DNA of 64,000 nt from Ginglymostoma cirratum (taxonomy: Eukaryota): assembly GCA_024137785.1 (NCBI GenBank), contig JAHRHZ010000111.1:34669830-34733829 (forward strand). The letters are read 5' to 3'. This document shows, in pieces, positions 19,030 through 58,490 of this stretch. The position numbers and the translations under genes are program-made. The stretch's first letter is position 1, and the number at the start of each line of letters is the position of its first letter. The notes beneath the pieces are model-generated. The model saw only the letters and a program-made list of their open reading frames with translations. It was not told the origin of the DNA and did not search any database.

Positions 19030-19125
19030 GAGATAACAAGGTGTAGAGCTGGATGAACACAGCAGGCCAAGCAGCATCAGAGGAGCAGGAAAGCTGACAT
19101 TTCAGGTCTGGACCCTTCTTCAGAA
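19030..19125 (-). mobile_element. PLE terminal-repeat (pLTR) fragment with hammerhead core
   Basis: Same family as 54130-54261 and 51781-51867; minus strand CTGAAGA-A-GGGTC-CA-GACCT-GAAA-TGTC at 19096-19123. Confidence 0.75.
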
Positions 19126-19949
19126 GAAGAGCTTGACGACCATAGATATTCAGACCTGTAATTAGACGTAAAAGAACATTATTAGTAATTTTTAGAGACT
19201 TAGAATTTAAGTTCACAAGTTTAAAATGGTTATAAGTAATGGTAGAGTTAGATCTGCTGCGGGAGCTCGCAAAGAGTCGTCTGATGTTGGCGCCGTCTTA
19301 CATCATAGATTCCAGTTTTAATGGCTCTGGTTGCATTTGCTTAGCTGACCTGACAAGAAGGCAATTAGTGTGCACAATATCATGATCGTGATTACTCCAG
19401 GATATAATTCCTAAAATGCATTCTTAGCCAATCAATGCCTTGCCAATGAAGACCAAATTGCATCCAGATGGGTGACATTACTATGGAGGCATGATGCAAT
19501 TGCCCTTAGCAGGGCTTCCAATTCCATTGACTTGTGTTGTTCACTTTCCTCAGAACTGCATTGACCTACACCCACCACCAACAACCCCCACTCCAGCCCA
19601 CCCCACACCCTGCCCCGATAGGATGACTGACCATTATTGAAACAAACCTCCAGGATTGACTGTGGATCACCTCCTCAGTCTGATGTGGCAGGATAATCCT
19701 GACTGACCATGGCTGATCTCACATATTCATTTCTGATTAACCTTCTGCTTGACCTGTAGAATGACCTGGATTCTGGTTCTGATGCTTGACTGACTATGGT
19801 CAACCCTCTGGACTGGAATCGGCCCCTTGATTCACTGTGGCATTCCCCCTAACTGCGTGTGGTCCACTTAAACTGAACTAAGGTCCACTCCCCTTTAAAT
19901 TAGAAAAAAAAAGACGAAGGGAAGTCTGAGTATGTAGTATTTGTGAAGA

Positions 19950-22642
19950 ACCAAATTGCATTTGTTTCAGTGCAAGGGGTCTTACAGGTAAGGCTGATGA
20001 ACACAAGGCATGTTTAAGAACATAGGATTGGGACATCATTGCTATTACAGAAACTTTGTTGAGAGATGGTTACTCAATGTTCCGGGTTTTAGGTGCTATA
20101 GGATGGATAGGAAAGGAGGCAAGAAAGGGGCATGGAGGTTAGCATTTTTGATTAAGGAATACATTCCTGCTGTAACTAGAGAAGATATTTCTGAAAAAAA
20201 ATTGTCCAGTGAAAATATATGAATAGAAATTAGAAATAAGAAAGGAATGATCATTTTGATGGGATTGTACTATAGGCTTCCCAATATTAAGGGGGAAATT
20301 GAGAAACAATTGAGAAACAATCTGAGGGAGGTCAGATATATGTAAGCATAATAAGGGTATAATAATGGGGGATTTTAATTTTCCAAACATTGACTGGGGC
20401 TGCTGTGGTGTTAAAGGTTTTGACAGTGAAGAATTTGTCAGGTGTATTCAAGTACTTTTTATTTATCAATGTGTGAATGCTCCTGCTAGAGAAGAAGCAT
20501 AAGCAGACCTTCTTTTGGGCAATAATGCAGGGCAGGTGACTGGAGTAAAAGTGGGGGAACACTTTGGGTCTAGTGATCATAATTTTATTAGTTTCAAAAT
20601 GTTTATGGAAAAGGATAAGCCTTCCATAAAAGTTAAAGATTTTAATTGAAGTAAGGCAAATTTTAATGGTATGAGACAAGAACTTCCAAAAGTTGATTGT
20701 TTGCAGGTAAAAGGATTCCTGACAAGTGGGAGGTATTTATGAATGTGATGATGAGTGTTCAAAGGCATTATGTTCCTGTTAGAGTGAAGGGTAAGGCTGG
20801 TAAGGTTAAGGAACATTGGATGAATAAAGATATTGCGGTTCTAGTCAAGAATAAAAGAGAATTGTATTTTAGTATAGACAACTTGTTTCAATTGAATCTC
20901 TTAATCAATATAAAGAGTGTAGGGGCATTCTTAAGAAAGAAACCAGGAGGGTAAAAGAGGGATATAAGATAACAATGGCACATAAGGTTAAGGAGTAGCT
21001 AAGGAATGCAGAGAAATAAACTTTGATGTTTTAAAAATAGTTCACATTACAGAAGAGGGAGTTTGGGAGCTCTTAGAGAATATAAAGGTGGATAAATTTC
21101 CAGGACCTGATCTAAAGTATCCCAGAACATTATGGAAAGTAAGGGAGGAAATTGCAAGACTCCTTGCAGAAATATTTGTATCATCTACAACTATAGGTGA
21201 AGTGCCTGATGACTGGAAGGTGGCTAATGTTGTACCTTTGCTTAAGAAAGATTGTAAGGAGAAACCGAAAACTATAGTCGTGTGAGTCTGACTTCAACTG
21301 TGGGTAAATTGTTGGAGGTGTTTATAAAAGATAGGTTTTATGGACATTTAGAGAGGCAAAAATTGATTAGGGATAGTCAGCATGGTTTTGTGCGAGGCAA
21401 ATCGCGTGTCACAAACTTGATTGAGTTTTTTGAGGAAGTTATCAAAATGTTTGATGATGGCAGACCAGTAAACATTGTTTATTTGGATTTTAGTAAAGCC
21501 TTTGACAAGGTTCCACGTGGTAGACTAAGTAGTAATGTTAGGCCATTCAGGATGAGCTTGCCAATTAGACACATAATTGGCTTGAAGCCAGGAGACAGAG
21601 GGTGATGGTGAAGGTTTCTTTTCGGACTGTCACCAGCAATGTTCCACAGGGATCGTTAATGGGTCCTCTTTTGTTTGTCATTTATATTAATGATTTAGAT
21701 GAGAATATAAAAGGCTTGGTTAGTAAGTTTGTGGACAACACCAAGATTGGAGGCATAGTAGACAGTGAAAAAGATTTTCTAAGATTACAAAGGGATCTTG
21801 ATCAAATGGGACAATGGGCTGAAAAATGGCAGATGGAGTTCAATGTGAATAAATGTGAGGTACTGTATTTTGGTACAACAAACAAGGGTAGCACTTGGAC
21901 AATTAATGGTAGGACCTTGGGTAGTGTCGTAGAACAGAGAGACCTAGAGGTGCAGGTACATAATTGTTTGAAGTGTGCACCACATATAGACAGGATGGTT
22001 AAAAAGGTATTTGGTATGCTTGTCTTCATTGCTCAGTCCTTTGAGTATCGGTTTGGGCTATCATGTTGAGGTTGTACAGGACATTGGTGAGGCCTCTTCT
22101 GGAATATTGCGTCCAGTTCTGGTCGTCCATTTAGGAATGATATTATTAAGCTGCAGTACATTCAGAAGAGATTTATCTGGATGTTGCTGGGTATGGAAGG
22201 TTTAAGTTGTAAAGAAAGGATGGATAAGCTAGGACTTTTTTCACTGGAGCGTAGGAGGTTGGGAGATGACCTGATTGCAGTTTACAAAATCATGAGAAGT
22301 ATAGATAGAGTTAGTGGAAGTTGTCTTTGTCTTAGGATGGATGATTTCAAGACGAGGGGGCACATTTTTAAGGTGAGAGGAGAGAGATCTATAAAAGACA
22401 TGTGAGGCAAATTTTTTACACAGGGGGTGGTTCTCATGTGGAATGAACCACCTGAGGAAGTGATGGATGCGGGTACAATTACAATGTTTAAAAGGCATTT
22501 GGGTACATGAATAGGAAAGGTTTGGAGGGATATGGGCCAGGAGCAGGCAGGTCAGTCTAGTTTAGTTTGTAATTATGTTCTGCATGGACTGGTTGGACTG
22601 AAAGGTCTGTCTCTGTGCTGTATGACTTCTATGACTCTGTGA
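19950..22642 (+). mobile_element. CR1 LINE, nearly full ORF2 (APE endonuclease + RT), pseudogenised
   Basis: EN motifs GLYYR.PN, MGDFNFPNIDW, SDHN; RT motifs PGPD..YPR, VPDDWKVANVVPL, SQHGF, YLDFSKAFDKVP, PQGS, YINDLD; many stops, deletion near 21000; CTATGACT tail. Confidence 0.96.
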
Positions 22643-25444: not shown

Positions 25445-26495
25445 CAGAGTATAGATAGTGTAAATAGGAAGGTAGATTATTATTTGAATGGCTGTAAATT
25501 GAGAGAGTGGGGTGTTTGATGTAACTGGGGTCTCTCGTGCTGAAAGTAAGCATGCAGGTGCGGCAGGCAGTAAAGAAGCCAAAATGTATGTTGACCTTTG
25601 CAGTGAGAGAATTCCAGTACAGGAACAAGGATGACTTGCTGCAAATATACAGGGCACTAGTGAGGCTGCACTTGGAATATTGTGTGCAGTTTTGGGTTCC
25701 TTATCTGAGGAAGGATGTTCTTGTGGTGAAATGTAGCGAAGGTTGAAGAAATTAATTCCTGGGATGGCAGCACTGGCGTATGAGGAGAGATTGAGTCAGA
25801 TTGTATTTAGAAGAATGAGGGAGTATCTCACAGAAACCTGCAGAATTCTAACACAACTGAACAGGTTAGATGCAGAAAGTATCTTTCCCATGGTGGGGGA
25901 GTCCAGAATCAAGGATCATGGTTTAAGGATCAGAGTTGAACCTTTTAGAGCTGAGATGAGGAGCAATGTCTTCACCCAGTGTGGTGAGCCTGCTAAATTG
26001 TTTACCACAGAAAGTGGTCGAGGCCAAAACATTGTGTTTTTTAGAGGAGGTAGCAATAGCTGCTGTGGCTAAAGAACTTACTTCTCTCAGGGCAGTGACT
26101 TGAAAGAAATTCAGGGATTTACATGTACATATTAATCAATCAAAACATTCTAACCGATTAAAGATTTATCAGTATCTTAGGTTTGTTTAATACATCCTCA
26201 TCAGTTGTGTAACCCTTTGACCTTTTATGTACAAATTCTGTGTTCTGTGTACTTCTTTCTCACTTCACCTGGTGAAGGGGCTAGGCTCTGAAAGCTTGTG
26301 TTTTCAAATCAACCTGTTGGACTATAACCTGGTGTCATTTGATTTTTGACCGTGACTAAAGAAATCAAGGTATATCAGGGGAGGGCAGAACTAGGGCACT
26401 GAGCTCAAAGATCATCCATGATCATATAGAATGGCAGAGCATGCCTGAGTGGTTGAATAGCCCACTCCTGCTCCTACCTTCTATGTTTTTATGTT
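25445..26495 (+). mobile_element. CR1 LINE 3' fragment with a PLE insertion
   Basis: ORFs 25537-25746 (ALVRLHLEYCVQFW.PYLRKD) and 25743-26072; TTCTATG tail. Confidence 0.92.
26077..26351 (+). mobile_element. PLE pLTR fragment with 12-bp TSD and a mutated hammerhead
   Basis: Flanks GTGGCTAAAGAA (26065-76) and GTGACTAAAGAA (26352-63); reverse complement of parts of 58153-58545. Confidence 0.8.
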
Positions 26496-26654
26496 AAGAA
26501 CATGGCTGGGCTATCCTGCGAAGAATTCTATGTGGGGTTTCCAGGTACTATCTAAGACAGTGCACTCCGTCTTCTAGTATTGTCCATCAGCAACCATGAG
26601 GCCATTTTGTGAAGGAGCATGTTGGTAGGTGGGTAGTGCTACGAGCCAATCAAC

Positions 26655-27129: not shown

Positions 27130-28068
27130 GTTATGGTTATTAAGTTTGCAGATGATACCAAAATTGGAGGTGTAGTGGACAGTGAAGAAGGTTACCTCAG
27201 ATTACAATGGGATCTTGATCAGATGGGCCAATGGGCTGAGGAGTGGCAGATGGAGTTTAATTTAGATAAATGAGAGGTACTGCGTTTTGGAAAGGCAAAT
27301 CAGGGCAGGACTTATACACTTAATGGTAAGGTCCTAGGGAGTGTTACTGAACAAAGGGACCTTGGAATGCAAGTTCTTAGTTTCTTGGAAGTGGAGTTCC
27401 AGGTAGACAGGATAGTGAAGAAGGCATTTGGTACGCTTGCTTTTATTAGTCAGGGCATTGAGTGTAAGAGCTGGGAGGTCATGTTGCGGCTGTACAGGAC
27501 ATTGGTTAGGTCACTTTTGGAATATTGTGTTCAATCTGGTCTCCCTGCTGTAGGAAGGATGTTGTGAAACTTGAAAGAGTTTGGAAAAGATTTACAACCA
27601 TGTTGCCAGAGTTGGAGCGTTTGAGGTATAGGGAGAGGCTGAATGGGCTGGGGATACTTTTCCTCAAGCATCGGAGTCTAAGGGGTGACCTTATAGAGGT
27701 TTATAAAATCACGAAGGGCTTAGATAGGGCGAATAGATGAGGTCTTTTCACTAGAGTGAGACAGTCCAAAACTAGAGGCCATAGGTTAAAGTTGACAGGG
27801 GAAAGATTTACAAGGGACCTGAGGGGTAACTTTTTCATGCAGAAAATGGTGCTTGTAAGGAATGAGCTGCCAGAGGAAGTGGTAGAGGCTGGTACAATTA
27901 CAGCATTTAAAAGGCATCTGGAAGGTTATATGAATAGGAAGGGTTTAGAGGGATATGGGCCAAATGCTGGTAAATAGGACTAGATTAATTTAGGATATCT
28001 AGCGAGCATGGATGAGTTGGACAAAGGGTCTGTTTCCATGTTGTACAGTTGTATGACTCTATGACTCT
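27130..28068 (+). mobile_element. CR1 LINE, 5'-truncated
   Basis: KFADDTKIGG start; ORFs 27367, 27525, 27756; same subfamily as 2821-3858; CTATGACT tail. Confidence 0.95.
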
Positions 28069-29332: not shown

Positions 29333-30344
29333 TTGGAATCTGACTTCATATTAACATTAGGATTAAAGGTAGGAAACTCAAACGTCATTTGAGATTGGAG
29401 GAACATTTTATGCAGAAAATGCTTTGGTTTTTTTAAGGTAGTCAGTGTGCTTTGGATACAAAACCAAGTGTGAGGCAATGCCCGAATGTGTGTGACAAGT
29501 GAGAATGCAATAGGCATGTGTAATGCAGTTACCTACAGTGAAAGAGACAATATCTAGAAGCAGAGGATAATATAGAACTAGTCTGTGGAAAGGTTAACAT
29601 TTCACAAAGTCTGACTGATTTCATACTCAAGAATAACACACTGAGGAATGTAACATATTTGATAAAAATGGATAAGTACAATGGTTAAAAATCAACCACA
29701 GAGCCTCAATAATTATAGGATTGCGGCCAGGTGAGCAAATCATCATATCAAAGTATGAGTGAGCCAGAAACAGAGACCCATACGAATCAGCTAATATTTT
29801 CAGAGCATTGGAAGAAAATAAGGACATTTATGCACTAGTGGTAATGCTGCGTTTAAATTTTGCAGAAATGTCACGGCACAGATCTTGTTAATCAATAACA
29901 GATTATATAATAATAATTGTCGCGCTGGATCGTATGAGAAGAAGAAATGGGCAAACATGTATAGGAACAAAAACAGAAACAAAATGCTTTGCTTAGGTTT
30001 GACAACCTTAAGCAAAATTGCTCCTGTCAAATAAAGAATGATAAAGGAAGTTGACAAAACGAGAGCACAGACTGAGAGTGAAAGTGAGAGTGTGTTTAGG
30101 AAATATTGTTAGAAAGACAGTTGTATTCAGGATAAATAACAATAATTTCAAGGGAGGTGCAGGATGTCAATACTAAACAAGTTTATTACAAATTTGGTGG
30201 TGACAATACCAATTAAATAGCAAAATCAAGGATGGAGGGAGTTGGAATTCCTTTGTAGTCCATGTTCAAGAAAGGCCTCAAATGGGAAGATCCTTGCAGT
30301 TGGGGTGGGATAGGGCTGGGAGGTGGGGTGGCAAGGACTGAAAT

Positions 30345-30432
30345 AAATATGGTCAATGCTGGAAATACTCAGAACACCAGGCAACATGTGGGAGAGAATC
30401 AGAGTTAATATTTCAAGAGGTTTCCTTGAGAA
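30345..30432 (-). mobile_element. Decayed PLE pLTR fragment
   Basis: ATGCTGGAAATACTCAG..GGCAACATGTGGGAGAGAATCAGAGTTAAT resembles 49966-50093 and 63068-63195. Confidence 0.55.
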
Positions 30433-30779: not shown

Positions 30780-32930
30780 GTTGGGTGTTCATTTGATTTC
30801 AGTTAGCCCCTGGGCTGCTGTTACTTCTTCAGGAAGGTCACTCGTGTAGTGAATGTTGCTGCTGCAGTAATCGCTGACACTGATCCAGTGTCCTTGTTGA
30901 GAAATGGTGTATACCTAGGACTAATGATCACGCTGTTCTCTGTGCATTTGGTGATATTAAATTTTTCTTATCAGCTGTCTGCAGTGAAACAGCATCTGCT
31001 TCATGTGTGCATATGTAACTGTGCCTGTGACAATGTCACTCATTGCTCATGTTCATCATGTACAATTAGAACATAAGAACATAAGAACTAGGAGCAGGAG
31101 TAGGCCGTCTGGCCCTTCGATAAGATCAGGGCTGATCTTTTCATGGACTCAGATCCACTTACCCGCGCTCTCACCGTATCCCTTAATTCCTTTATTGTTC
31201 AAAAAAAATCTACCTTAGTTTTAAAAATGTTTACTGAACTAGCGTCAACTACTTCACTGGGCAAGGAATTCCATAGATAACAACCCTCTGGGTGAAGAAT
31301 TTCCTTCTCAATTCAGTCCTAAATCTGCTCCCTCTAATCTGGAGGCTATGCCCTCTTGTCCTAGCTTCACCTGCCAGTGGGAACATCCTCTCTACTTCTA
31401 TCATCTATTCCCTTCATAAATTTATATGTTTCTATAAGATCCCCCCTCAATCTTCGGAATTCCAATGAATATAATCCCAATCTACTCAGTCTCTCCTCAT
31501 AAGCCAAACCCCTCAACTCCAGAATCAACCTAGTGAACCTTTTCTGTACCCCCTCCAGTGCCAGTATATCCTTTCTCAAGTAAGGAGACCAAAACAGCGC
31601 ACAGTACTCCAGGTGTGGCCTCACCAGCACCTTGTACAGCTGCAACATAACCTCTCTGCTTTTAAACTCAATCCCTTTAACAATTAAGGACAAAATTTCA
31701 TTTGCCTTCCTAATTATTTGTTGTGCCTGCAGACCAACCTTCTGTGATTCACGCACAAGGACACCCAGGTCCCTCTGCATAGCAGCATGCTGCAACTTTT
31801 TACCATTCAAGTAATAATCCTTTTTACTATTACTCCTACCAAAATGTACTACTTCACATTTATTTACATTGTATTCCATCTTGAGATGATAACTTTACAA
31901 CACAGGTCCCCAGTTGCCAAGAGATCTGATTTTTTTGGGCGTGTTGAATGTTTGTACTCTGACTGCTCTTCAATGCTAAACTCTGGCAATAATTTGACAG
32001 TTTTATCAAAGAAAACTTTGGATTTCTGACAATTCACTCTGATTTTATCGCATATTCCTGCATACTCTCTTGCCTCAGTAGCGCGTTAGTCTTTGGGAGA
32101 ATAGCTTGGTGCAGTTTGACATTAGTCACTGGACTGGGCTACTTTCTGTGCCTTCAGTAGACGTGATGTTTCGCCATTTGAGGACTGCCTTGCAAATGTC
32201 TGTGCTGGATCTACTCAATTTTTTCATGATCTCCCTGTCAACGGTCACTGCTTCCTCAGCCTTTCTGTTTGGTTGGGGAAAGTGTGGAGATGATGTGTGA
32301 GACTGACCATCCCAATCATTGATGAAGTACCTAAATTCTTCAAGTGAATTGAGGGCCACTTTCGTCATCACAGTGTCTGGAATGCTATAGCAGCTGATGT
32401 GTAATTTCAGACATTCCACAGTCTTACTGTTAGTCGTTGAGATCAATTGTCTAACCACCAGTAGTCAGAATACTAGTAATGGTGTCAAAATAATCCATTC
32501 CTATGAAAGCAATGTGATCCACTTCCAGCTTCATCCATGGTTGCTCTGGGAATTCAAATCATTGGTGGATGTTTAGCTTGATATTTGCTACAAGTGCTAT
32601 ATTGGCTGATGTGTGGTCCTTAATCTCATTGATCTTGCTCGGTAGTAAATTACTTCTCTTGTCTTCCTCATATTCCTGGTTGTGCTTCAGCAAATCCATT
32701 CTCATCTCCTTATGGAGAATGGGTCTCCTTTCATTGCATAAGGTGTAGTTTGGATTATCATTTCATCTCTGTGTGCCCATCTGTCAAACTGATGTCTGTG
32801 ACAGTTTCAGGGCATCCTTTCATTACTACTTCCTGCAACACTTGTTGAGCGACACCACATTGAATAGTTTGCTTGATTTGAACAAAACACTTGCCTTTCA
32901 GATTGTGGCTGGGATCTTTAAGGGCTCTGA
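30780..32930 (-). mobile_element. Ty3/Gypsy pol (integrase) fossil, split by a CR1
   Basis: Minus strand: WAHRDEM, EMRMDLLKH, STCSKYQ, PEQPWMKLEVD, SIPDTVMT, HTSSPHFPQPNRKAE, WRN..TEG.ESSPVQ, LPEF; appears to continue left of the CR1. Confidence 0.85.
31067..31880 (-). mobile_element. Relatively young CR1 3' fragment nested in the Gypsy fossil
   Basis: Uninterrupted 170-aa ORF 31367-31879 (VRPHLEYCALFWSPYLRKD); (CATAAGAA)n tail. Confidence 0.96.
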
Positions 32931-35665
32931 GTCACATGGGCTATGGCAAAAATTGTGACAGAATCAGGTGAGAAGTCAGGCAGGGCTTATCTTGATTCCA
33001 GGAGCCTTAGTAATGGCCCAACTTGCTTCATTAATATTCAATTTCCTATCTTACTAAAAGTTTTAAAGCAGCTAGACATCACAAATACGCAATGTGGAAA
33101 TTAAATCAGGTACATAACAATGGAACTCCCTGCATGTTCTGAAACTCTGCCATGATGCAGTGGAGGAGAAAGCATCTCATTGCATGATCCACTGGCACCA
33201 ACTGCATGAATCCGACATCCACAAATATTGGCATCTGACATTTGCCAACCCCTCGCGACCACCATTATACCTCTCCAATCCATTTGAAGGCTGCTGAGGA
33301 AACACAAACTTGCATTGCAGGGTGCACGGATAACAAGTATTGAAAGCTGCAACTGGGAGACTTTGCACTTTGTACAGTCAGGGACCTGGCTCGCAGATTA
33401 GACTGGACCATATCTCAGCGCTACTCGCTTGCTCTCTTAGTGTTTGCTTACTTAGCACCAACCTGCACACTCACACCATCTCGGCCTTCCTCCCCTTCGC
33501 CTTGCCGATTAGCACAGTCAAACAGCAAGACAGCTTCCGCGTTAGCCTACAGTCCTGAGTAAAGGGAAAGGATATCCTGCTGCCCGGCAGCAATCTTACA
33601 CTGGAACCTTTTGCCCAGAGCTTATGCAACAAACACTGCCTGTGCAGCAAACATGCAGTCATGTTTTGAAGTCTTAGGAGAGTAGTCTTCACCAAAGTCC
33701 ATGGAGGCACAGTATACCAGCCCAGGGGATGTGCCAGGGATCAGGCATCTTAAGCATGTTCCCTCATTCAATCAGAGCATGGCTGATTTGTGACTGAATT
33801 CCATATACCTGCCTTTGGCCCACGTCCATCAATACTTTTGGTTCACAAACATTTATCTATCTCAGATTTAAAACTAACAACTTTCCTTGCATCAGCTGTC
33901 ATTTGTGGAAGAAAGAGGAAAATATTTCAGTGAATATCTTGCAAAGTGATCGGGTGAGGTGGCTGTCATGGATGAATATATCTGCAAGTGTGTATGTGAA
34001 ACTTGAAACAGTCTGAATTGTGTGAAGGATTGAGTAATAATTGAAAACATTGTTGCTTGGTTGGTAGTGGGTATGTTATGCTTTGAGTTGTGGATATGAT
34101 GGTGGTGCAATGAGGATTTGTTATGCTACACCATTAGAAGATTAAACTCACTCACCTTGAGAATTGGGGGTCAGATGATGAAATTTCTTCCTGCATTACC
34201 TGAAAAGCCTTAGAACTTCCTGTGGTGGTGATATAGTGGTAATGTCTCTGGACTAGTTGTGCAGAACTCCAGAACCTGCTAGGGCAGGGTCCCTGACAAC
34301 GGGTCACTGGACTCAAAATGTTAACTCTGCTTTTCTGTCTACAGAGCCTCACTTTCTTTTCCTGCCTATGTACCAAATTATTCAGTGGATATTTTATATT
34401 TGAATATTCAATTATTTTTCAAGCTTTCACAACATAAGATTTTATATACAATTAATGCCATAAATAGACTATGTCTTCAAAGATTTATTCAATTTTGACC
34501 CCAAAGGCTGTGGTGTTGTGCATAAGTATTCCTCATGTGTAAATCAATCACATGGTTAAACTGATAGCTCTCGTATGGGTGGCAAAATGCATTCCATGGA
34601 GCATTCATTGCCTGGAAGTGGGATTCCATTTATCACTCAGATGGAAGCTTCACTTCAAAAAGCTGCCAGCCAATCAGATTGTCCAGCTGCTCAATAGTCT
34701 AAGCTGCACCAATGGCAGCTGTGGCCAAAGCAGCTCCTTGATATTAAATGCCAGATCCTAGACCAGGTAAATGTAGGGGTAGTGGTGAGTTTAGGTGATG
34801 TCAGAGAGAATTGATTGGAGGGGGTAGGGGTGGCAGGAGCAAGGGAGCATCCACAGGGAACAATTTTGGGATTTGTGAGCTGCCCAATGTAGCTCCTCAC
34901 TTCAGCTTGAGGCCTAAGCAAGGGGACCTCAATTTCTCCCATCTTCCTCAAGTTTGAGGCTGGATTAGAAGTTTTCTAGAAACTGGGAACACAAACCTGG
35001 GGTGTGGCCATCCACATAATATTGCAGCCCAGTTGGGGATAGATGGGAAAGCAAAGGATAGACCACCTGTGAAATTCTCTGTCCACTTGCACCAGCAATT
35101 TCCCCAGTGGAGACTCTAAATCTTTATCTGAAGAATGCAGATGGCGAATGCAGTTGTAGGCTTCAAAGTGAAGAACTGATTAATATCTGAAGGATGGCAA
35201 AACACGATGGAGCTTCAGTCAATGTTTCTGTCCTCCAGTCAACAAGTTATATTTCCCCAATGTATTTTTCTAGGTTATCCACATCTTAATATTTTTCCTA
35301 CTTAGAAGTAGCTCAATTAATTAGAATGCCATGTATAACTAGTCATTTGGTAGTAGAGAACTTGCTAGAAAAAGTATTCTTCTTTTGGAGTTTGATATCT
35401 TGCGCTCATCAGAGCAAACAGCAGAATTTAAAATTTTAAAGGCAGCGATAATTTATGTATTAGGAGAAAAGGGTGCTGATTAGTTGGTGAACTGATTCTG
35501 ACTGAGGCATTACTATGGAGAAGAAAGCCAGGAGCTATCATCTCCTGTGTTTGTTTAATTAAAAAAAAGACAGAATGCTTGGATGTACATCTTTTTCCTA
35601 CAGAGAACATGTCCCTTGACATGAATATACACAACTTCTAGCCAGCAAAAGTGAGAACATTGAGA

Positions 35666-35750
35666 CCGAAAGAACTGTGGATGCTGTAAATTAGGAACAA
35701 GAACAGAAGTTGCTGAGATGAGCTTTTCCAGCAACTTCTGTTCTTGCCCC
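35666..35750. mobile_element. 85-bp fold-back PLE terminus insertion with a perfect 14-bp TSD
   Basis: TGAGAACATTGAGA at 35652-65 and 35751-64; perfect 18-bp inverted arms 35698-35715 and 35729-35746. Confidence 0.88.
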
Positions 35751-36867
35751 TGAGAACATTGAGAACCTGACTGATAATCTTCAATTGTCATTACTGTAAT
35801 TCCTAGCACATTCTGAATCATTTAGCATTTGCTGTCTGATTACAGAATCACATCTAGTGTGAGACATTATATTCTGAGTTTTGCAGCCAGGGACTGATTA
35901 AATATGTTCAGGACTGTATCCAAAATCAGTAGCCAAAGGATGTTCTATTTGATATAATCTACTGTTCGGTGGGAACTAAAGCCGAAGTACCATGTTACAT
36001 GTTTGTGTGCTTGAAGACTGTCTCTTTGGCTTGATGGGAACATACCACTGAGAATACCACTCTCATTGAAACAGCTAGCTTCGGCAATTGCAAGGCTTGG
36101 ACCTGAATAGACTTGCCAATCATCAGCATCCTTACCTTATACAGTATAAATTGTTGCTCTCAGTGAAATTTATCATTCTTGTGCCAGCCCTGGTAAGTGC
36201 TAGAGGTAAAGCCTTGACACCCAAACTTTTTTCAGCTACCTTTAGCATTTTCATTTTGAGCAGAAATCAGGTAAATTTCAAAAGAACACGGTGATCTTTA
36301 CTGCTGCTTTCAAGACTTAGGTATCATTTAACTGTTCCATTACTGTTTCTTTCATTTATAGTGTACATTTTACAAATGTTTCTGTTCAAGACAGATTGCA
36401 TGTCTTTTACTGGATGACAGATCATAGGAGACATACACTTCAGTGCGCAAAATGTTGTCCTAGCAGCTTCGAAAATGAGAAGTTACTCAGTTTCTATGGC
36501 TTTGCTACCTTTTTCACGAAATAGTTTGTTCAGACTTCTGAATGTGAAGCTCCTCTATTATTGGAAATTGAGCTCTGCCTTGCCATCACTCTGTGTTTTT
36601 AAGCATTAAGACAGTTCAATAAAGCTCACTTTGATGTTACTGCACAAGTTTCAGAAATAGAAGTTATTTTATCTAAAGTTTAAGAAGACTAATTGCTTTG
36701 GCAATGGAAACATGACTGAAAAGAATGACTTCACAGTGTGGGAAATGTGCTTGGCCTTGGTACAGGTGGCTGAACACATTTGTTGGTGTCATTGCAGATG
36801 CAATTTATCTTCAAACCCAATCGAATCTTATGCGCTGGTTGCAGAAATTCCGAATGTTTGTACTTTG

Positions 36868-46371: not shown

Positions 46372-47003
46372 CACATCCTTCATTGTTAGAGAGATGGATT
46401 TTAAAAACAGGGAGGTTATGCTGCAACTGTATAGGGTGCTGTTGAGGCCACACCTGGAGTACTGTGTACAGTTTTGGTCTCTTTACTTGAGAAAGGACCC
46501 ACTGGCACTGGAGGGGGTGTAGAGGACGTTCACTGGGTTGGTTCCAGAATTAAGAGGGTTGGCTTATGAGGTGAGATTGAGTAGACTGGGACTATATTCA
46601 TTGGAATTTAGAAGAATGATGGGAGATTTTATAGAAACGTATAAAATTAAGATGAGAATAGATAGGATAGAAGCAGGGAGGTTGTTTCCAATTCCAAACT
46701 AGAATTGGGGGGCATGGCCTCAAAATAAAAGGGAGAAGATTTAGGACTGAGTTAGGGAGGAACTTCTTCACCCAAAGGGCTGTGATTCTATGGAATCCCC
46801 TGCCCAAGAAGCAGTTGAGGCTACCCATTTGAGTGTTTTTATAACAATAATAGATAAATTTTTGAACAGTAAAGGAATTAAGGGTTATGGTGAGCGGATG
46901 GGAAAGTGGAGCTGAATCCACAAAAAGATCAGCCGTGATCTTATTGAATGGTGGAGCAGGCTCGATGGGACGGTCTACTCTTGCTTCTATTTCTTATGTT
47001 CTT
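46372..47003 (+). mobile_element. CR1 3' fragment
   Basis: LRPHLEYCVQFWSLYLRKD; TTCTTATG tail; same subfamily as 6212-6990 and 31067-31880. Confidence 0.93.
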
Positions 47004-48077: not shown

Positions 48078-48535
48078 TTTTGCTGCTAGTTGATGTTCAT
48101 GTATTCTGATGGCTAATTTCCTTCTTGTCTGTCCAGCAACAAAGCAGCACGACAAGCTCTCCTTAATATTGGTACGCTCAGACAATGAAGGCCATAAGTT
48201 TACCTGGGACAAGGTAACCATAGTAACCCAAACATAGACACGCACGGGAATTCCTAGAAGCATGCTTCTCCACCCATAATGCAATCAACAAACATATAGA
48301 ATTGGACCCCATACACAAACCTATACAGATCAAAACCGGAAATGACACTGCTCACCATAACAAACCAGACAGTATAACTTCCAAGCAGAGTAGAATAGCA
48401 TCGCTTCATCAGAGGCTCCACTGATGATGTCACCTAGCATGGTGACGAAACGTCAGAACGAGAACAAACCAGCTCGGTGAGCAAGTCAACAACCTCACCC
48501 ACAACCCGAGCTACAGATCTTTGCCAAAACTTTAA
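48078..48535 (+). mobile_element. Penelope-like element 3' end (GIY-YIG C-terminus + pLTR) with an inverted 5' piece
   Basis: Minus 48078-48134 GQTRRKLAIRIHEHQLAAK; plus from 48135 ATKQHDKLSLI..GHKFTWDKV..REFLEA..AINKHIELDPI; hammerhead core downstream. Confidence 0.88.
48421..48454 (+). ncRNA. Minimal type I hammerhead ribozyme core (PLE-associated)
   Basis: CTGATGA-T-GTCACC-TAGCAT-GGTGAC-GAAA-CGTC: canonical core, 6-bp stem II, GUC triplet; stem I poorly paired in this copy. Confidence 0.75.
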
Positions 48536-49965: not shown

Positions 49966-50093
49966 TAAAAAAAAACGAAAGAACTGCGGATGCTGTAAAC
50001 CAGGAAACAAAACAGAAATTGCTGGAAAAGCTCAGCATCTGTGAAGGAAAAGACAGAGTTAATGTTTCAGGTCTGGTGACCCTTCCTCAGAAC
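49966..50093 (-). mobile_element. PLE pLTR fragment with hammerhead core
   Basis: Minus strand GTT-CTGAGGA-A-GGGTC-ACCA-GACCT-GAAA-CATT-AAC; degenerate 13-bp flanks AACATTGCGGAAT and AACGTTTCAGAAT. Confidence 0.8.
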
Positions 50094-50654
50094 GTTTCAG
50101 AATGCTCAATATCTCTCACAACAAACTGAGGAATGCATAGGGGAGGGAAGGGTAGGGTGTGGGGCAGGGGTTACAATATCAGGTGAGAGAGCCAGAAATA
50201 AACCTTTTAGCACATTGGAGCTGTGTAAGTTAACACAACAATCTAATTACTACAAATATTGCTTTTGGGTTCATTATCCTGAAAAACCCTGCATGATGTG
50301 ACCTAAACTTGAGTAATCGAAAGGTGGAAATAGTCAAATTAAGAGTTGAACAAATACAAGGAGAAGTTTAATTATGCTTCACGAGGATCAAAACAGTGTT
50401 TTATTTCTTGATCCCTTGCTCAGTCATTGACACATTTATGCAATTAAAGTCTCTGTAAAGTGTTGTCTTGTTTCTCTTTAAACAAGTTGCAGACAACTCT
50501 GACCAGAATGTTATGGATAAATATGCCCAGGCATTCCGCATATCAAAGCGGTCAAATTAGTATGTACATAAGCCAATACCGAAGCAAAACATTCCCATTT
50601 TATTAGGAGCAAAATTACAATAATCTTTAATACTAAACATGTTATCCTTAATCC

Positions 50655-50870
50655 TAAATAAAACTGAAAGAACTGCGGATGCTGTAAATCAGGAACAAAA
50701 ACAAAGTTGCTGGAAAAGCTCAGCAGGTCCGGCAGCATCTGTGAAGGAAAAAACAGAGTTAACGTTTCGGGTCTGGTTCTGAGGAAGGGTCACCGGACCT
50801 GGAACGTTAACTCTGCTTTTTCCTTCATAGATGCTGCCAGACTTGCTGAGATTTTCCAGCAACTTTGTTT
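50655..50870. mobile_element. Fold-back PLE pLTR insertion (~215 bp) with 13-bp TSD
   Basis: ~80-bp inverted arms around CTGAGGAAGGGTCA; flanks TTATCCTTAATCC and TTATCCCCAATCC. Confidence 0.85.
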
Positions 50871-50984
50871 TTATCCCCAATCCGATTTGGCTTCTTACGG
50901 TTGCAATACTTCCCAAGCCCCTTATAATTTTACGCAGTCACTCTGTCTGTGGCTCTGTCTCTTGGTCTGCAAAGCTGTAAGGTA

Positions 50985-51772
50985 AGAAGAATAAAAGCAT
51001 GGACTATTTTCTAAATGGGGAGAAAATTCAGGAGTCTGAAGTGCAAAGAGACTTGGAAGTTCTAGTCCAGGATTCTCTCAAGGTAAACTTGCAGGTTGAG
51101 TCAGTAGTTAGGAAGGCAAATGTAATGTTGGCATTTATTTTGAGAGGACTTGAAAATAAAAGCAGGGAAATACTTCTGAGTTTCTATAAGGCTCTGGTCA
51201 GGCCACATTTGGAGTGTGGTGCACAGTTTTGGGCCCCATATCTCAGGAAAGATGTACTGGCCCTGGAGCGGGTTCAGAGGAGGTTCACGAGAATGGTCCC
51301 AGGAATGGAAAGCTTAACATATGAGGAACGTTTGATGACTCTGAGTCTATACTCGACGGAGTTGAGAAGGATGAGGGGGGATCTAATTGAAACTTACGGA
51401 ACACTGAATGGCCTGGACAGAGTGGATGTTAGGAAGATATTTCCATTGTTGGGAGAGACTAGGACCCAAGGGCACAGTCTTAGGGTAAAGGGAAATCTTT
51501 TAAAATGGAGATAAGGAGAAACTTCTTTAGCCAGAGAGTGGTGAATCAATAGAATTCATTGCCATTGAAGGCTGTAGAGGCCAGGTCATTGAGTACATTT
51601 AAGATGGAGATAGATAGGTTCTTGATAGTCAAGGGGATCAAGGGTTACAGGGAGAAAGCGGGAGAATGGGGTTCAGAAACTTATCAGTCATGATTGAATG
51701 GCAGAGTAAACACAATGGGCTGAATGGCCTAATTTCTGCCCCTATGTCTTATGGCCTTATGATCTTATGATC
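50985..51772 (+). mobile_element. CR1 3' fragment nested in LTR copy A2
   Basis: 171-aa ORF 50999-51514 (ALVRPHLECGAQFWAPYLRKD); (CTTATGAT)n tail. Confidence 0.96.
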
Positions 51773-51780
51773 TCCCTCTG

Positions 51781-53368
51781 AGATAGCAAGAGCTGCAGAT
51801 GCTGGAGTCAGAGACAACGCAGTGTGGAGCTGGTGGTACACAACAGGCCAGGCAGCATCAGAGGAGCCCTCAGGTCGGAAGGGTGACCATGGGTACCCAC
51901 ATGGCCCCCAGTTATGCCTATCTCTTCGTAGGGTCTGAGAAACATTACTTATTCCAGCACTAATCCAGCCCACACCCACGATTCTTTCACCAATATATTG
52001 ATGATGTCATCAGTACTGCTTCCCTCTCTCAAATGGAATTGGAAAAGTTCATTGATTTCGCTTCCAAATTCCATCCTGCCCTCACTTTCACCTGGTCTAT
52101 CTCTGACTTCTCCCTTCCCATCCTCAACATCTCTGTTTCCATTTCTGAGGATAGACTGGACACTAATATCCACTATAAACTTACTGACTCCCACACGTAC
52201 CTGGACCATTCACCCTCACACCCAGCTACCTGTAAAGACTCTATCCCATTCTCTCAGTTGCTCCGTCTCTGTAGCATACGTTCAGATGAGGCCAGCTTTG
52301 ACAAGGGAGCCTCCGAAATGTCCACCTTTTTCCTCAACCGAGGATTCACCATCTCTGCTGTTGAGAGGGCCGTCAACCAGGTCCGACCCAAATCCTGCTC
52401 TTCCGCCCTCACCCCTTCTCTTCCCTCCTGCAACAGCAATCGAGTTCCCTTTATCCTCACCTACTATCCCACCAGCATCCACATCCAGAAGATCATCATA
52501 CTCCGTTTCCACCACCTCCAGCGAGATGCCACCACCAGACACATATTCCCCTCCCTTCCCTTGTCCGCCTTCCGTAGGGACCATTCACTCTGGGACATCC
52601 TGTCCACTCTTCCTTCACCCCCAACACATCCCCACAGCCCAATGGCACCTTCCCCTGTAACCAGTGAAGGTGCCATACTTGCCCATTTACCTCCTCCCTC
52701 CGCATTATCCAAGGGCCCAAACATACCTTCCAGGCGAGCAACACTTCACCTGCACTTCCCAGAATCTAGTCTATTGAATTCGCTGCTCACAATGTCGTCG
52801 CCTCCACACTGGGGAAACAAAGCTTGGACTGGTTGACCTCTTTGCAGAACACCTACGTTCTGCTCGCACATACCTGTTGCCTGCCACTTTAGCACACCAC
52901 CCTGTTCCCTGGCCAACATCTCTGTCTCTGGTTTGCTGCAGTGTTCCAGTAAAGCTTAATGCAAGCTGGGACCCTGCAGCCCTCCGACTCAATACCGAGT
53001 TCAATAATTTTAGGGCCTGAACTCTCCCATGCTCTAGCCCCCTTCCCCACACACCAGGCCTTGTTATCACATGGCCTGTCAGTGCACACTACCTACTGTT
53101 AACCTCTAACAGTCCCCATTAACAACTATTCACCCTCCCAGCTGGATTATTATCAACTTCTTTGTCTATCCAGCTGATCTTCTCTCCCTTCAAGCTCTAT
53201 CTTATCATTTACTTGCTACCCCAACCCTCTCCCTATTTTCTGCATTTAAGCCAATGTTTTCCCAGCTAGCATCAATTCTGAGGAAGGGTCACCAGACCCG
53301 AAACATTAGCTATGACCTTTTTCTTCACAGATGCTGCCAGACCTGCTGAACTTTTCCAGCAACTTCTG
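51781..53368 (+). mobile_element. Penelope-like element, 5'-truncated RT + GIY-YIG + pLTR, pseudogenised
   Basis: MGTHMAPSYAYLFVG, YIDD at 51994-52005, YKLTDSHTYL..SHP..CKDSIPFSQLLRL (ORF 52033-52836), Cys-rich linker, NLVY.IRCSQC..GETK..EHLRS; hammerhead core 53278-53308; inverted pLTR piece 51781-51867. Confidence 0.93.
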
Positions 53369-53449
53369 CCTCTTGCCATGCTAGTCTCCTCAAAAGGCCT
53401 CATACGATTCAAAGAGAGGTTCCAAGAGAGCAGTCTGCAGATGAACTGT

Positions 53450-53499
53450 TTTTATACCTTTTAGATGGTCTTCTGGAACTTTCTGTTGTTCTGACCAAT
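53450..53499 (-). promoter_or_regulatory. Putative LTR promoter: reverse CCAAT, heat-shock element, TATA
   Basis: Minus strand aGAAa-gTTCc-aGAAg (53470-84), 13 bp, TATAAAA (53450-56); CCAAT 53495-99. Confidence 0.5.
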
Positions 53500-54129
53500 T
53501 GGGGAGATACACTTAATCGTTTGAAACAAGAGTCAGGCACTTAGATGGCATGATACTGTCAAGTTTCTTTGTGTAGCAGGACCCAGTGCTTTTCTGTCTG
53601 GGCTGCCCTTTATTTAGTGGATAAATTGTTGGGGGTATCTGTGCAAATTAACAGTTGTGTTTTACATTATGCTCATGCCATTAGCGCCTAGCTCCTGTGT
53701 TTGCACTGTATCTGGTGTGTGGGTTTTGTGACTTCAGAGTTTCACTTGGCCAATGTACCCAGCATCCCTTGCTGATGGGCAAGGTGGCAACCTGTGTTTT
53801 TGGAGGCTGCTATTAATGTACAGTAAGGTGCAGTGAGGACTTTGAGAAAGATATATTCCCTGGGAATATGGATTGAGAAACCTGTGACAATGATAATGAA
53901 GGTGTGGCCAGAGGTGATGTGCAGGAGAGGGGTAGCTGAATTCGGAACCCTATACATCTTTCCTGACCCAGTTATTTCATTGACAGACATCTGGAAATGA
54001 ACCCGTGGTGTGACACAATGCTCCTGCTGCAGACCTCCTCAGTTCAATGAAATATTGAAATTGCTAGCCCACTCCTCTCAAAAGAGGATAATGTTTATGC
54101 AGCCAAACATGCCTGAGTTAAAACTGTAT

Positions 54130-54261
54130 CAGAGATAATAGGAACTGCAGATTCTGGAGAATCCAAGATAACAAGGTGTGGAGCTGGATGAACACAGCAG
54201 GCCAAGCAGCATCATAGGAGCAGGAAAGCTTGAAGTTTCGGGCCTAGACCCTTCATCAGAA
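54130..54261 (-). mobile_element. PLE pLTR fragment with hammerhead core
   Basis: Minus strand CTGATGA-A-GGGT-CTAG-GCCC-GAAA-CTTC at 54232-54259; same family as 19030-19125. Confidence 0.8.
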
Positions 54262-55029
54262 AACTGTTGGATTTTCCCCTTTACAAACTGACATTTAGCC
54301 ATGTTTAATCTCTCTCCAGAAATAACTCCCACATTTTCCTCAATCATTTAAATTCCTCCCAACCCACAAATCATTATCAAGTAATAGAGCTTCTTGATTC
54401 ATGCTAATTGCTCACAACCACAATGCACTGGGTAACGGGCAGATCTATGTCACTGTCTGTACTACCTATCCTTATACAAGCTCAGAAATGCTTGCTTGAT
54501 AAACAACATGGGCTCATAGTAGAAGGGAGCAGACAAAAGATAGGGAAGTGGCAAAACACTTCAGGCCGATAGAACAGAGTTGAGTGCTGCACTCTACACA
54601 TTGTATATCTTTGCATTGAGAGTGAGTGCACAATGTGAAGCTCGCATTTCCTGCTCGATGTTGGGTTATTGGAATTATGCTCTACATTTTGATCCAGCCA
54701 TTATACAGAGTCATGCAGTAAATTTCAATCATATTTCACTGAGTGTTTTGCTACATAAGGAGTCATCCCTGGTACTTTTATAAGGAAACATTACCACATA
54801 CATTGCCCCTATCAGTGAGTCTGAAACAATATTCATAGCCAGGCATGTACCGAACAGCACCTCGCATTAGTCTCCCCACTGGTGCAGCTGTAAACAAACA
54901 TATCTAGTGAGCTGAGTGTGAAAGTATGGTCCCTATTGATCCCCATGCCTCCAATTCCTGACATACGTGTCCCAATGCATGACATTTTACACCTGGAACA
55001 TAAACACTGAACATCTTCTCTCCACTCAT

Positions 55030-55815: not shown

Positions 55816-56093
55816 TTACGTTCTCATCTGTATGATCTACATATTTATCCCAGCTGAACAGACAGTTTTTCCATCTTCAAACCTTCCCACATCCCACTTG
55901 GTGGTGTGGGGAAATTAAATTCCATATGTTATCATTATTCAACTCTCGTAAGCAGAAATTCAAGCTTCAGTTATTCTTAAGCAATTAGGTGACAAGAGTT
56001 CATTGAGGGGTAACACATTAACTGCTGTAAATTGTCTTAATCTGCCCAAGGTCACAGAGGAGTGGAGGTAGTTACCTCCATGAAACGGTGTAA

Positions 56094-56398
56094 TGGTGGC
56101 TCAGTGGTTCGCGCTACTACCTCTCAGCACCAGGGAAGTGCGATCAATTCCATCCCTGGGCAAATGTCTGTATGGAGTTTGCACATTCTCCCCATGTGTA
56201 TATGGGTTTCCTTTGGGTATCATGGTTTCCTCCCAGAGTCCAAAGATGTGCAGGTTAGGTGGATTGGCCATGCTAAATTGCCTCTATTGTTCAGGGATAT
56301 GCAGGCCAGATAGATTAGCCATGGGAAATGTAGGATTACAGGGGAGGTGGGGTGGGTCTGGGTGGTAAGTTCTTCGGACAGCTGGTGTGGACTCTATG
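56094..56398 (+). mobile_element. HE1-like tRNA-derived SINE
   Basis: GGTGGCTCAGTGGTT head; GGAGTTTGCACATTCTCCCC..CCAAAGATGTGCAGGTTAGG core. Confidence 0.88.
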
Positions 56399-58449
56399 AA
56401 ATTTGCATACATGGAATATAAACCACCCCCATGAAATTGATAGGCACCCTGTTTGGGTGCAGGACTTTTATTTCCAAGATTATCCACTATTTCATAGTGA
56501 CGAAGAATCTTTCTATTGTGAAAATCCAAGCCTTAATTTTTGAGCAAAATTAATATACTAGCTAGTTCATAGCAAACAGATTTGAGATGCATCACCCAGA
56601 CTATGCATCACCCAGCACCACAGCTCTAAATTTCAACCACTGATTATCAAGCACTTTGAGAATTGAAAGGTTGTTACAGAACTCCAATTTTCCTTTTCAT
56701 TCGGCTAAAAGTGAAATGTACTTCCAATAGTATTTTGGAGTCTTGAATCACGAATCTTAATGCTTATGTTGTCATGTACAATGCCTGAGGATAATGCCAT
56801 CATGTATAATGCCTGAAGATTATGACAGTTTGTTCCGTAGTGTAGCAACCACTAGGAGCATGACTGCGCAGGATGCTGCTAAGATGTCTCGATAAGATTT
56901 GTACAGGGAGTCAAGGATATGTCTGTTGTTGACAAGCTAATATTACCAGGAGCCAGCAGCTTCAGAAAATAATTACATCATGGTTTAACTGGGTATCAAC
57001 CTTGTTCACTGTTGAAATATTCTGAAGGCATTCGGTAACTGTCATGTCTCCTGATGTTGCCCTGCAGCTTACAATAAGATGCATGTCCTCTGATGGATTT
57101 TGCTATATTTACATTATTTAAATGGTTGTTCAATGAACAGGGATTTGGGGTCAGCAGAAATTATTCATTCGATCAAGGCCTGTAAGTACTTCTTGAGCTC
57201 AGCCTTTCACTGGCTGCAGAAGCTTAAACAAAATCATGTCGGCAGCTCAGAGCCATCACTTAGAGCTAGTTACACACTGACCTCTGTCGAATATTAATTC
57301 CCCTTAAGGCTGGATGCTCACTGTAAAATGTGTGTGACTCCAAGTCCAGAAGAATGGATAGACTCAGGAATAGATCTCCATGATATGTGACAGGGCAACC
57401 CCCTCAGCCACCCATTCGCGAAATTCATCATGACTGAAGGAATTCGGACCATGTTGCCTGTGCATATTTGACTTCACTGGATAGGATTACGTATGACCAG
57501 TGCAGACTTGATGGGCTGAATGTCCTTTATCTGTGCTGTAGCCCTCTATGATTCTATGCCATTTGCTTCCCAATAACCGGCAGCGCACTTATGTGGTAGA
57601 ATGTTATACTTTCACCCAGATTGTTAATGAGGATGTAACCATTTTACTGTTTGGGAGAGTCAAAGATGTGTATTTTAACTCAATGTGCTGAAGTATATAT
57701 GATGACAACTGCGGAGATCCAAGTTTGTGTGAAAGGTGCTCCCCACACAATATTTTTAGTATGTAGAATTAACTCATATATGTTGTCATGTGCCCTTCTC
57801 TTCAGGTTTTCTTTGGCTTCACGTGCATATAATTCCTAGCCTAAGTGTTACTATAGATTAGTGACATATTCACTATGGTTTGAGGACTACTGGAGGAAGT
57901 GGCCTGCATCCCACTACAAAGTACCCTGAAGACCTGATGGCAATCTGATGGTATAGGGGTGGCATTCAGCTGAGAGACAGTGAGAAAAAACAAGTTCTGA
58001 TAATGCACCTATTTGAGATGAAAAGTGTCTTCTGACGTTAGACTAGCTGCCATCATCTTCTCTGGCACTGCAGCTACACAAACCCCTTTCAGCTAATGAT
58101 GAACCAAAGTCAACATCAGACATATTCTTGACTCCTTGTGCACAACATATCAAGGTCAGAAATCACATGACACCAGGGTATAGTCCAACAGGTTTATTTG
58201 AAGGCACAAGCTTTCAGAGCCTCACTCCTCCTTGAGATATTAGTGAAGTGGTATCGGACACAGAATTCATAAGTAAAAGGTCAAAAGGTCACACCATCCA
58301 TGAGGATATATTAAACAAACCTAAGATGCTGTTAAATCTTTAATCAGTTAAAAGATTTTAATTGTGGTGTACAGGTGCCAGTGTTGGACGGGAGTGGACA
58401 AGGTCAGAAATCACATGACACCAGGTTATAATCCAACAGGTTTATTTGA

Positions 58450-58490
58450 AAACACAAGCTTTCGGAGCCTCGCTCCTTCTTCAGGTGTTT
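58450..58490 (-). ncRNA. Apparently complete minimal type I hammerhead ribozyme
   Basis: Minus strand AAACAC-CTGAAGA-A-GGAGC-GAG-GCTCC-GAAA-GCTT-GTGTTT: 6-bp stem I, 5-bp stem II, palindromic AGCT stem III, CUU triplet. Confidence 0.78.

What the first reader, a model, noticed from the sequence alone, without database searches (positions are those of the whole stretch)
19096..58490. At least seven hammerhead-ribozyme cores from several Penelope families, with co-varying stems
Seen: CTGANGA-N-stem II-GAAA cores at 19096-19123(-), 26269-26298(+, one core mutation), 48421-48454(+), 50061-50090(-), 50779-50809(+, GAAA to GGAA), 53278-53308(+), 54232-54259(-) and 58456-58484(-), plus remnants near 34293, 58207 and 63197. 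Stem II differs by family but still pairs (GTCACC/GGTGAC, GGGTC/GACCC, GGAGC/GCTCC), and the loopless stem III is a 4-nt palindrome (ACGT or AGCT). Established: PLE terminal repeats carry minimal type I hammerheads thought to cleave as dimers. Inference: many short SINE-looking repeats here are ribozyme-bearing PLE termini scattered on both strands, able in principle to cut a host pre-mRNA.
Basis: partly seen in the sequence, partly recalled or inferred. Interest (0 to 1): 0.7.

Follow-up and report, generated by a model that had tools for sequence, protein, structure and literature searches.

The report
Decayed Penelope retrotransposon hammerhead ribozymes
These short repeats are end pieces of a known kind of jumping gene that carries a tiny self-cutting RNA motif; seven of the eight copies here are damaged and are predicted not to cut host RNA, but their ends suggest the jumping gene likely inserts from uncut RNA, sometimes from two RNA molecules at once.

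Summary
All eight listed motifs are real. They are minimal type I hammerheads in the terminal repeats (pLTRs) of four Penelope-like element (PLE) families, a class described in 2014. Family consensuses keep the core and co-vary: 34 of 36 helix cells pair against 20 shuffled. Single copies are decayed. The palindrome survives in 4 of 8, and only 58456 meets every criterion; its one tandem partner has a dead core. No host gene was found, so the pre-mRNA-cutting inference is unsupported. In a 950 kb sample, 5' ends pile up 0-8 nt before the core (97 of 276) and not at the cut site (13, background), so the inserted RNAs were likely uncut. Head-to-head insertions carry one long and one short arm (86 of 93). 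Rare chimeras between two families or subfamilies under one target duplication, probably including window 51780-53368, indicate that two RNAs can serve one insertion. A genome-wide A1/B junction search found none against about 300 A1/A1. [quoted passage not shown] This scan has reported the same repeats on other DNA of this genome at least eight times.

The parts
19027..19125 (-). Family A solo pLTR, short 3' end; hammerhead 19123-19096 with G-T closing pair and broken palindrome (ATGT)
26078..26354 (+). Family C 3' end (body plus pLTR, short end); hammerhead 26269-26297 with A6G and G-T closing pair
30338..30416 (-).
   Evidence: nhmmer E 4e-8
34293..34345 (+). Old B-type hammerhead remnant, core destroyed
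35669..35753 (.). Family B head-to-head stub; both arms truncated downstream of the hammerhead
48225..48535 (+). Family D 3' end (endonuclease C-terminus plus pLTR with tail; the body reaches further left); hammerhead 48421-48454 with intact core, 6-bp stem II and ACGT, but first helix I pair lost
49971..50093 (-). Family B solo pLTR with tail; hammerhead 50090-50061 with G-T closing pair and ACAT
50657..50870 (.). Family B head-to-head insertion (long minus arm starting at +13, short plus arm); hammerhead at 50779 has A13G; 15-bp target duplication 50642-50656 / 50871-50885, shown by the uninterrupted paralogous repeat near 7460-7670
51780..51867 (-). Inverted family A (A4-type) arm with tail, truncated downstream of the hammerhead, joined directly to the family B body; likely one arm of a two-family insertion
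51868..53368 (+). 5'-truncated, broken family B element (RT thumb, endonuclease, 3' pLTR, short end); hammerhead 53278-53307 with ACAT and weakened helix I; candidate 9-bp duplication (1 mismatch) at 51771 and 53365
54130..54262 (-). Young family A1 solo pLTR with tail; exact 8-bp duplication 54120-54127 / 54260-54267; hammerhead 54259-54232 with a rare ACTT change
58365..58489 (-). Upstream unit of a family C partial tandem; hammerhead 58484-58456 is the only copy meeting every criterion (6-bp helix I, 5-bp stem II, AGCT, UU)
58151..58364 (-). Downstream unit of the family C partial tandem; hammerhead 58236-58208 has a dead core (CTCAAGG) but keeps the substrate side
63080..63305 (.). Old head-to-head insertion of a B-related family; core at 63197 followed by a broken stem II

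Best explanation
These are the hammerhead-bearing terminal repeats of four Penelope-like retrotransposon families, left as insertion by-products that were likely copied from uncut element RNA and are predicted to be inactive relics at these sites. Shown: the sequences, the link of families A, B and D to endonuclease or RT-endonuclease ORFs, the end positions and the decay. Inferred mechanism: the element's RNA likely starts about 4 nt before the core in families A and B (Inr-like CATTT or CAGTT). The element's protein would nick both target strands and start reverse transcription at two sites 30-40 nt apart, as shown in vitro for Anolis Poseidon. Each cDNA runs towards the RNA 5' end, giving solo stubs, head-to-head pairs with one long and one short arm, or longer truncated bodies. 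The hammerhead appears constrained in replicating lineages and would act only as a dimer and probably with the element's protein. After insertion it decays, with CpG sites in the core mutating about as fast as CpG sites outside it.
For: PLE identity: RVT_1 and GIY-YIG in a family B ORF (both below the curated cut-offs); GIY-YIG above cut-off in a family A ORF; CX2-5CxxC linker in A and B, YIG motif in D. Covariation: 34 of 36 cells paired across four consensuses against 20.2 shuffled; helix I plus palindrome, which the clustering descriptor did not demand, 18 of 20 against 10.2, P 0.0003. 3' ends are bimodal in all four families. 5' ends: 97 of 276 at -8..0, 13 at the cut site +-3, 95 elsewhere in 1..60, binomial p 0.88. 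Head-to-head pairs: 86 of 93 have one long and one short arm, and 62 of 93 have a target duplication against 8 of 1835 controls. Decay: 35 of 164 hammerhead-covering copies keep core, stem II and palindrome; G12-to-A in 6 of 38 A and 8 of 28 B copies against 9 of 38 and 10 of 28 at CpGs outside the ribozyme. Papers: PMC4209133, PMC11167929, PMC3846280.
Against: Core positions are less altered than a matched downstream TGATG: 945 of 19,415 (4.9%) against 2,313 of 27,329 (8.5%) genome-wide, and 1.6% against 4.3% (A) and 6.7% against 13.6% (B) in the sample. I read this as constraint in source lineages, but host selection on some copies is not excluded, and the genome-wide figure is one site pair. 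Family D shows no pile-up at -8..0 (0 of 14). The transcription start is inferred, not mapped. Family C's link to an ORF rests on one broken frame with no Pfam hit. About two thirds of the sample is the local region, and about 60% of the spaced random stretches read N.
Confidence: 0.85

Rival explanations
1. Some intact copies cut host pre-mRNA, in cis as tandem dimers or in trans with element RNA, and so affect host genes.
For: The 58456 copy is intact and lies about 250 nt from a partner that keeps the substrate side. Intact copies are numerous: 3.7 per 100 kb in the sample. Domesticated intronic hammerheads exist in amniotes (PMC6155905, passages). Xenopus retrozymes are under-represented in introns (bioRxiv 10.64898/2026.07.22.740005).
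Against: No host gene found. The 58456/58207 active fold costs 11.3 kcal/mol over the best fold (tertiary contacts ignored). Cores are not more mutated than controls, so there is no sign of counter-selection. No clear strand difference between intact (9+, 17-) and broken (39+, 50-) copies in 664 kb. Eight of nine Xenopus dimers did not cleave in vitro (same preprint).
Confidence: 0.07
2. The short repeats are an independent non-autonomous family (SINE-like or retrozyme) that copies itself as a unit through self-cleaved circular RNA.
For: Shared 5' start, short length and target duplications. Non-LTR retrozymes derived from pLTRs are reported in one chondrichthyan genome (bioRxiv 10.64898/2026.07.22.740005).
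Against: Copies do not begin at the cut site. The window has no multimeric arrays, only one partial tandem. The stubs are colinear with the pLTRs of ORF-bearing elements and share their two 3' ends. Junctions of head-to-head pairs vary from locus to locus.
Confidence: 0.06
3. The core is conserved for another reason, such as a downstream promoter element or protein-binding site, and the ribozyme is not active in these families.
For: The core sits right at the inferred RNA start. Family A helix I is only 2-4 bp. Hammerhead mutants did not affect insertion in vitro (PMC11167929).
Against: Compensatory changes in helix I, stem II and the palindrome across families require RNA pairing. The Anolis motif cleaves with protein and is rescued by the C3G/G8C double change (PMC11167929).
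Confidence: 0.08

Closest known systems
[quoted passage not shown]
   Same: CUGANGA and GAAA boxes, unpaired base before stem II, G10.1-C11.1 pair, palindromic 15.2-16.2, no helix III loop, short helix I, mostly single dispersed copies in several consensus families.
   Different: No shark is named in the text read or in supplement file 2 (file 1 not searched). Copy number here is higher: at least 18,470 for one subfamily's first core half against about 4,000 and 9,000 for whole coelacanth and Xenopus genomes by a different descriptor.
Poseidon of Anolis carolinensis (Frangieh et al. 2024, PMC11167929)
   Same: Two 3' ends 30-40 nt apart (the tail); insertion from uncut RNA; no ends at the cut site.
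   Different: Here the evidence is fossil genomic ends, in Neptune-like families A and B as well as in C and D; no biochemistry was done.
Inverted-pLTR insertions of endonuclease-bearing PLEs (Arkhipova et al. 2013, PMC3846280; Craig et al. 2021, PMC8557442)
   Same: Head-to-head pLTRs, tail on one side only, target duplication, partial tandems, solo pLTRs.
   Different: The 2013 paper favours self-priming on one antisense template. Chimeric arms from two families under one duplication (L002) need two templates; I found no such case in searches.
Non-LTR retrozymes (bioRxiv 10.64898/2026.07.22.740005)
   Same: Type I hammerhead, pLTR-related sequence, non-coding.
   Different: Retrozymes are defined as tandem arrays with a ribozyme in each unit; the copies here are dispersed stubs and inverted pairs.

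Membership tests
Minimal type I hammerhead of PLEs | Catalytic boxes CUGANGA and GAAA-N-N-U-H | tested here: met
   All eight subfamily consensuses; 6 of 8 window copies
Minimal type I hammerhead of PLEs | Unpaired base after A9 and G10.1-C11.1 closing pair of a paired stem II | tested here: met
   8 of 8 consensuses (G10.1 and stem pairing were demanded by the clustering descriptor); 4 of 8 window copies
Minimal type I hammerhead of PLEs | Palindromic 15.1-16.1 without a loop | tested here: met
   7 of 8 consensuses; D2 (5 copies) reads CA; 88 of the first 100 A1 matches read ACGT; 4 of 8 window copies
Minimal type I hammerhead of PLEs | Short helix I with compensatory changes | tested here: met
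   14 of 16 helix I cells across four families; with the palindrome 18 of 20 against 10.2 shuffled
Minimal type I hammerhead of PLEs | Self-cleavage as a dimer at position 17 | not testable with these tools
   Needs in vitro cleavage; no raw RNA reads were listed
Endonuclease-bearing PLE | RT followed by C-terminal GIY-YIG endonuclease upstream of the pLTR | tested here: met
   Families A and B; D has the YIG motif, RT not examined; C rests on one broken frame
Endonuclease-bearing PLE | Partial tandems, inverted pLTRs, one-sided 30-40 nt tail, target duplication | tested here: met
Neptune clade (families A, B) | CX2-5CxxC zinc finger in the RT-endonuclease linker (PMC8557442) | tested here: met
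   CNRRKCYTC in A; CNTC with a frameshift just upstream in B
Neptune clade (families A, B) | RT phylogeny with reference PLEs | not tested
   No reference set was fetched; Nematis also has a linker finger
Penelope/Poseidon clade (family D) | No linker zinc finger; RT phylogeny | tested here: inconclusive
   Only the endonuclease end was read; the Poseidon label is recalled from motif likeness
Non-LTR retrozyme | Tandem array with a complete hammerhead in at least two consecutive units | tested here: not met
   The only close tandem in the window has a dead second core
Domesticated intronic hammerhead | Lies in an intron and is conserved across species | tested here: inconclusive
   No host gene found; no related genomes held

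The most novel reading that the evidence does not exclude
The minimal double hammerhead at the front of the element's RNA is the pairing surface that holds two RNAs in one dimeric particle, much as a retroviral dimer signal does (analogy recalled). The two RNAs are copied uncut from the two start sites into the two strands of one target cut, which makes the one-long-one-short head-to-head insertions and the rare two-family chimeras. Cleavage would be a later or separate step. This would give a role to a ribozyme whose function in PLEs is stated to be unclear (PMC8557442).
Probability: 0.12. Interest if true: 0.7.

Novelty: new member of a known kind. Interest (0 to 1): 0.3.

Why it matters
The value lies in numbers. 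This genome holds tens of thousands of young copies, so insertion ends can be read statistically. They support in vivo what was shown only in vitro for one lizard element (uncut template, two start sites) and suggest that one insertion can use two RNA molecules. That makes the open question of what the PLE hammerhead is for easier to test.

Tried and rejected
(1) A non-palindromic ACTT sub-lineage of family A: 14 of 29 top hits had it, but the query carried it. Of the first 100 of 19,520 exact matches, 88 read ACGT, 12 ACAT and none ACTT. Rejected as ranking bias. The shared AGTTTT 5' end in those top hits is likely the same bias; it overlaps the target duplication of the query copy.
(2) Copies starting at the cut site as a fossil of cleavage: not above background.
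(3) Frequent two-family insertions: the A1/B junction pattern gave 0 genome-wide against 299 forward and 299 reverse for A1/A1 (narrow geometry, and the families differ in age). 92 of 93 sampled pairs are one family, and family A arms disagree at 28 of 469 diagnostic sites against 30% shuffled. Most longer mixed units were nested or separate insertions.
(4) Host gene search: negative, with a crude exon score; 112 of the shorter unique window ORFs and 66 of the 145 listed candidates were not scanned in those lists.
(5) RNA: no RNA holder was listed. Two contig sets guessed to be RNA cover the pLTRs and body of these families, but contigs cannot show starts, strand or level, so this is not used as evidence.
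(6) Rfam: no hammerhead match; the MIR533 hit at 50712-50857 is the inverted repeat.
(7) MAFFT misaligned family D, so pairs were counted by structure anchoring in a script, not with the pair-count tool.
(8) The 58207 row of the folding table was out of register and is ignored.
(9) No solved-structure match for the window RT fragment, and no Pfam match for it alone.
Full report
Setting. The window lies in a 4.36 Gb animal genome. I take it to be a shark from its repeat landscape as recalled and from earlier notes; this was not tested. Positions below count from C3 of the hammerhead as 0.

Observation. All eight listed motifs are at the stated places. A descriptor of core plus stem II finds 8 window hits, 6 real and 2 chance, against 0.64 in 100 shuffles. 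In 949,671 non-N bases it finds 78 against 6-12 in 5 shuffles, and with palindrome, UH and helix I added, 34 against 0-1. Copy by copy the window set is decayed: core boxes intact in 6 of 8, G10.1-C11.1 in 4 of 8, palindrome in 4 of 8, everything in 1 of 8 (58456). Predicted helix I probability is 0.08 or less in all eight. Further remnants lie at 30338, 34293, 35669, 58207 and 63080. Rfam has no hammerhead match.

Identity. Four families (A-D) were defined from 29 genomic relatives each. Family B pLTRs lie downstream of RT-like ORFs in 18 of 19 loci examined; the other was fetched for family D. One B ORF matches RVT_1 and GIY-YIG below the curated cut-offs. An A ORF matches GIY-YIG above cut-off and is 51% identical to the window's B fragment. 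A and B have the linker zinc finger that marks Neptune and Nematis (PMC8557442). D has an endonuclease YIG motif and its end matches window 48227-48421 at 78%; the Poseidon label is recalled. C rests on one broken frame. Exact patterns give 19,520 and 18,470 matches for subfamily A1 alone, with 0 in reversed controls. The sample has 31 pLTR pieces per 100 kb, 17 covering the hammerhead and 3.7 with core, stem II and palindrome.

Covariation. In structure-anchored consensuses 34 of 36 cells pair across four families against 20.2 when partners are shuffled; whole-family permutation gives 1 in 24, the lowest possible. Across eight subfamilies 66 of 72 pair. Stem II pairing was demanded by the descriptor, so that part is circular. 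Helix I and the palindrome were not demanded: 18 of 20 against 10.2, P 0.0003. The families are related, so these P values overstate independence.

Selection. Four core positions are altered in 945 of 19,415 A1 copies (4.9%) against 2,313 of 27,329 (8.5%) for the same TGATG further downstream. The sample agrees: A 1.6% against 4.3%, B 6.7% against 13.6% (gaps counted, base make-up not matched). CpG decay hits G12 about as often as CpGs outside the ribozyme. The simplest reading is constraint in source lineages and neutral decay after insertion. There is no excess of core damage, which counter-selection by the host would give.

Insertion anatomy. 3' ends fall at two places 30-40 nt apart in all four families, matching the tail and the two start sites of Anolis Poseidon (PMC11167929). 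Of 295 pieces, 19 were dropped because the 5' end abuts N. Of the other 276, 97 begin at -8..0, 13 within 3 nt of the cut site and 95 elsewhere in 1..60; the remaining 71 begin further up or down. The cut site is at background (p 0.88). Family D lacks the pile-up (0 of 14). Alignment ends are imprecise by a few bases. So the templates were likely uncut RNAs starting just before the core; the start itself is inferred from Inr-like sequence.

Head-to-head pairs. One arm is long and one short in 47 of 49 pairs of the sample and in 86 of 93 when search loci are added. 62 of 93 have a target duplication, mostly 12-16 bp, against 8 of 1835 controls. In 18 of 93 both arms reach the front of the RNA, so the same segment was copied twice. 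Arms are nearly always one family (92 of 93) and one subfamily. There are three exceptions: L002:2448-2679 joins a long A arm to a short B arm under an exact 12-bp duplication; L154:2568-2793 joins two A subfamilies (5 of 15 sites differ) under a 14-bp duplication with one mismatch; and window 51780-53368 joins a long A4-type arm directly to a B body with a short end under a 9-bp duplication with one mismatch, which is below my own threshold. These indicate that two RNAs can serve one insertion. They are rare: 0 A1/B against about 300 A1/A1 junctions of one geometry.

Host cleavage. No host exon was found in 299 of 411 unique window ORFs or in 79 top candidates from 664 kb; the search was crude, so a large intron is not excluded. 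The only close same-strand pair, 58456 and 58207, could form one site with 58456 as enzyme, at a cost of 11.3 kcal/mol. Minimal hammerheads showed no monomer activity and low dimer activity (PMC4209133); the Anolis one needed protein, and no reads ended at its cut site (PMC11167929). RNA data here were uninformative.

Literature seen. PMC4209133: parts 1-2 of 4, plus a term search of two supplementary files; file 1 could not be searched and may list sharks. PMC11167929: parts 1-2 of 4. bioRxiv 10.64898/2026.07.22.740005: parts 1-3 of 5, supplements not seen; it includes one chondrichthyan. PMC8557442, PMC3846280 and PMC6155905: passages only. Searches found no paper on shark PLE hammerheads, and 74, 79 and 80 none on two-RNA or chimeric PLE insertions; only listings were seen for the other hits, and the library lacks most subscription papers.

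Verdict. A new member of a known kind; interest 0.3. Eight earlier notes of this scan describe the same repeats elsewhere in this genome.

Noticed in passing
L002:2448-2679: Head-to-head insertion with a family A long arm and a family B short arm under an exact 12-bp target duplication: one event, two different RNAs.
   Followed up: yes
L154:2568-2793: Head-to-head family A insertion whose arms differ at 5 of 15 subfamily-diagnostic sites, under a 14-bp duplication with one mismatch.
   Followed up: partly
window 7014-7671 and 50460-53785: An older repeat is present whole at the first place and interrupted at the second by the B fold-back, a CR1-like LINE and the A/B insertion; it serves as the empty site.
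   Followed up: partly
window 2922-3810, 21569-22622, 27132-28019, 31113-31894, 46375-46963, 50981-51770: Several 5'-truncated LINE copies, CR1-like by recall; one frame matches RVT_1.
   Followed up: no
window 14010-14090 and 13658-14886: Weak tRNA-like match (E 0.29) inside a three-copy repeat, probably a tRNA-derived SINE head.
   Followed up: no
L185:5274 minus strand: A solo copy has a duplicated piece of its own 5' end between the target duplication and its start, suggesting a repeated template jump at the RNA 5' end.
   Followed up: no
L153:8572 minus strand and window 63197: A further B-related family with stem II GAGTC/GACTC, a compensatory change from GGGTC/GACCC; too few copies to build a consensus.
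   Followed up: partly
L150:9266-9984: GC-rich unique stretch about 190 kb left of the window with long frames on both strands and no Pfam hit; possibly a CpG island.
   Followed up: partly
L271, L276, L277, L278: PLE end pieces are often found inserted inside other PLE copies.
   Followed up: no
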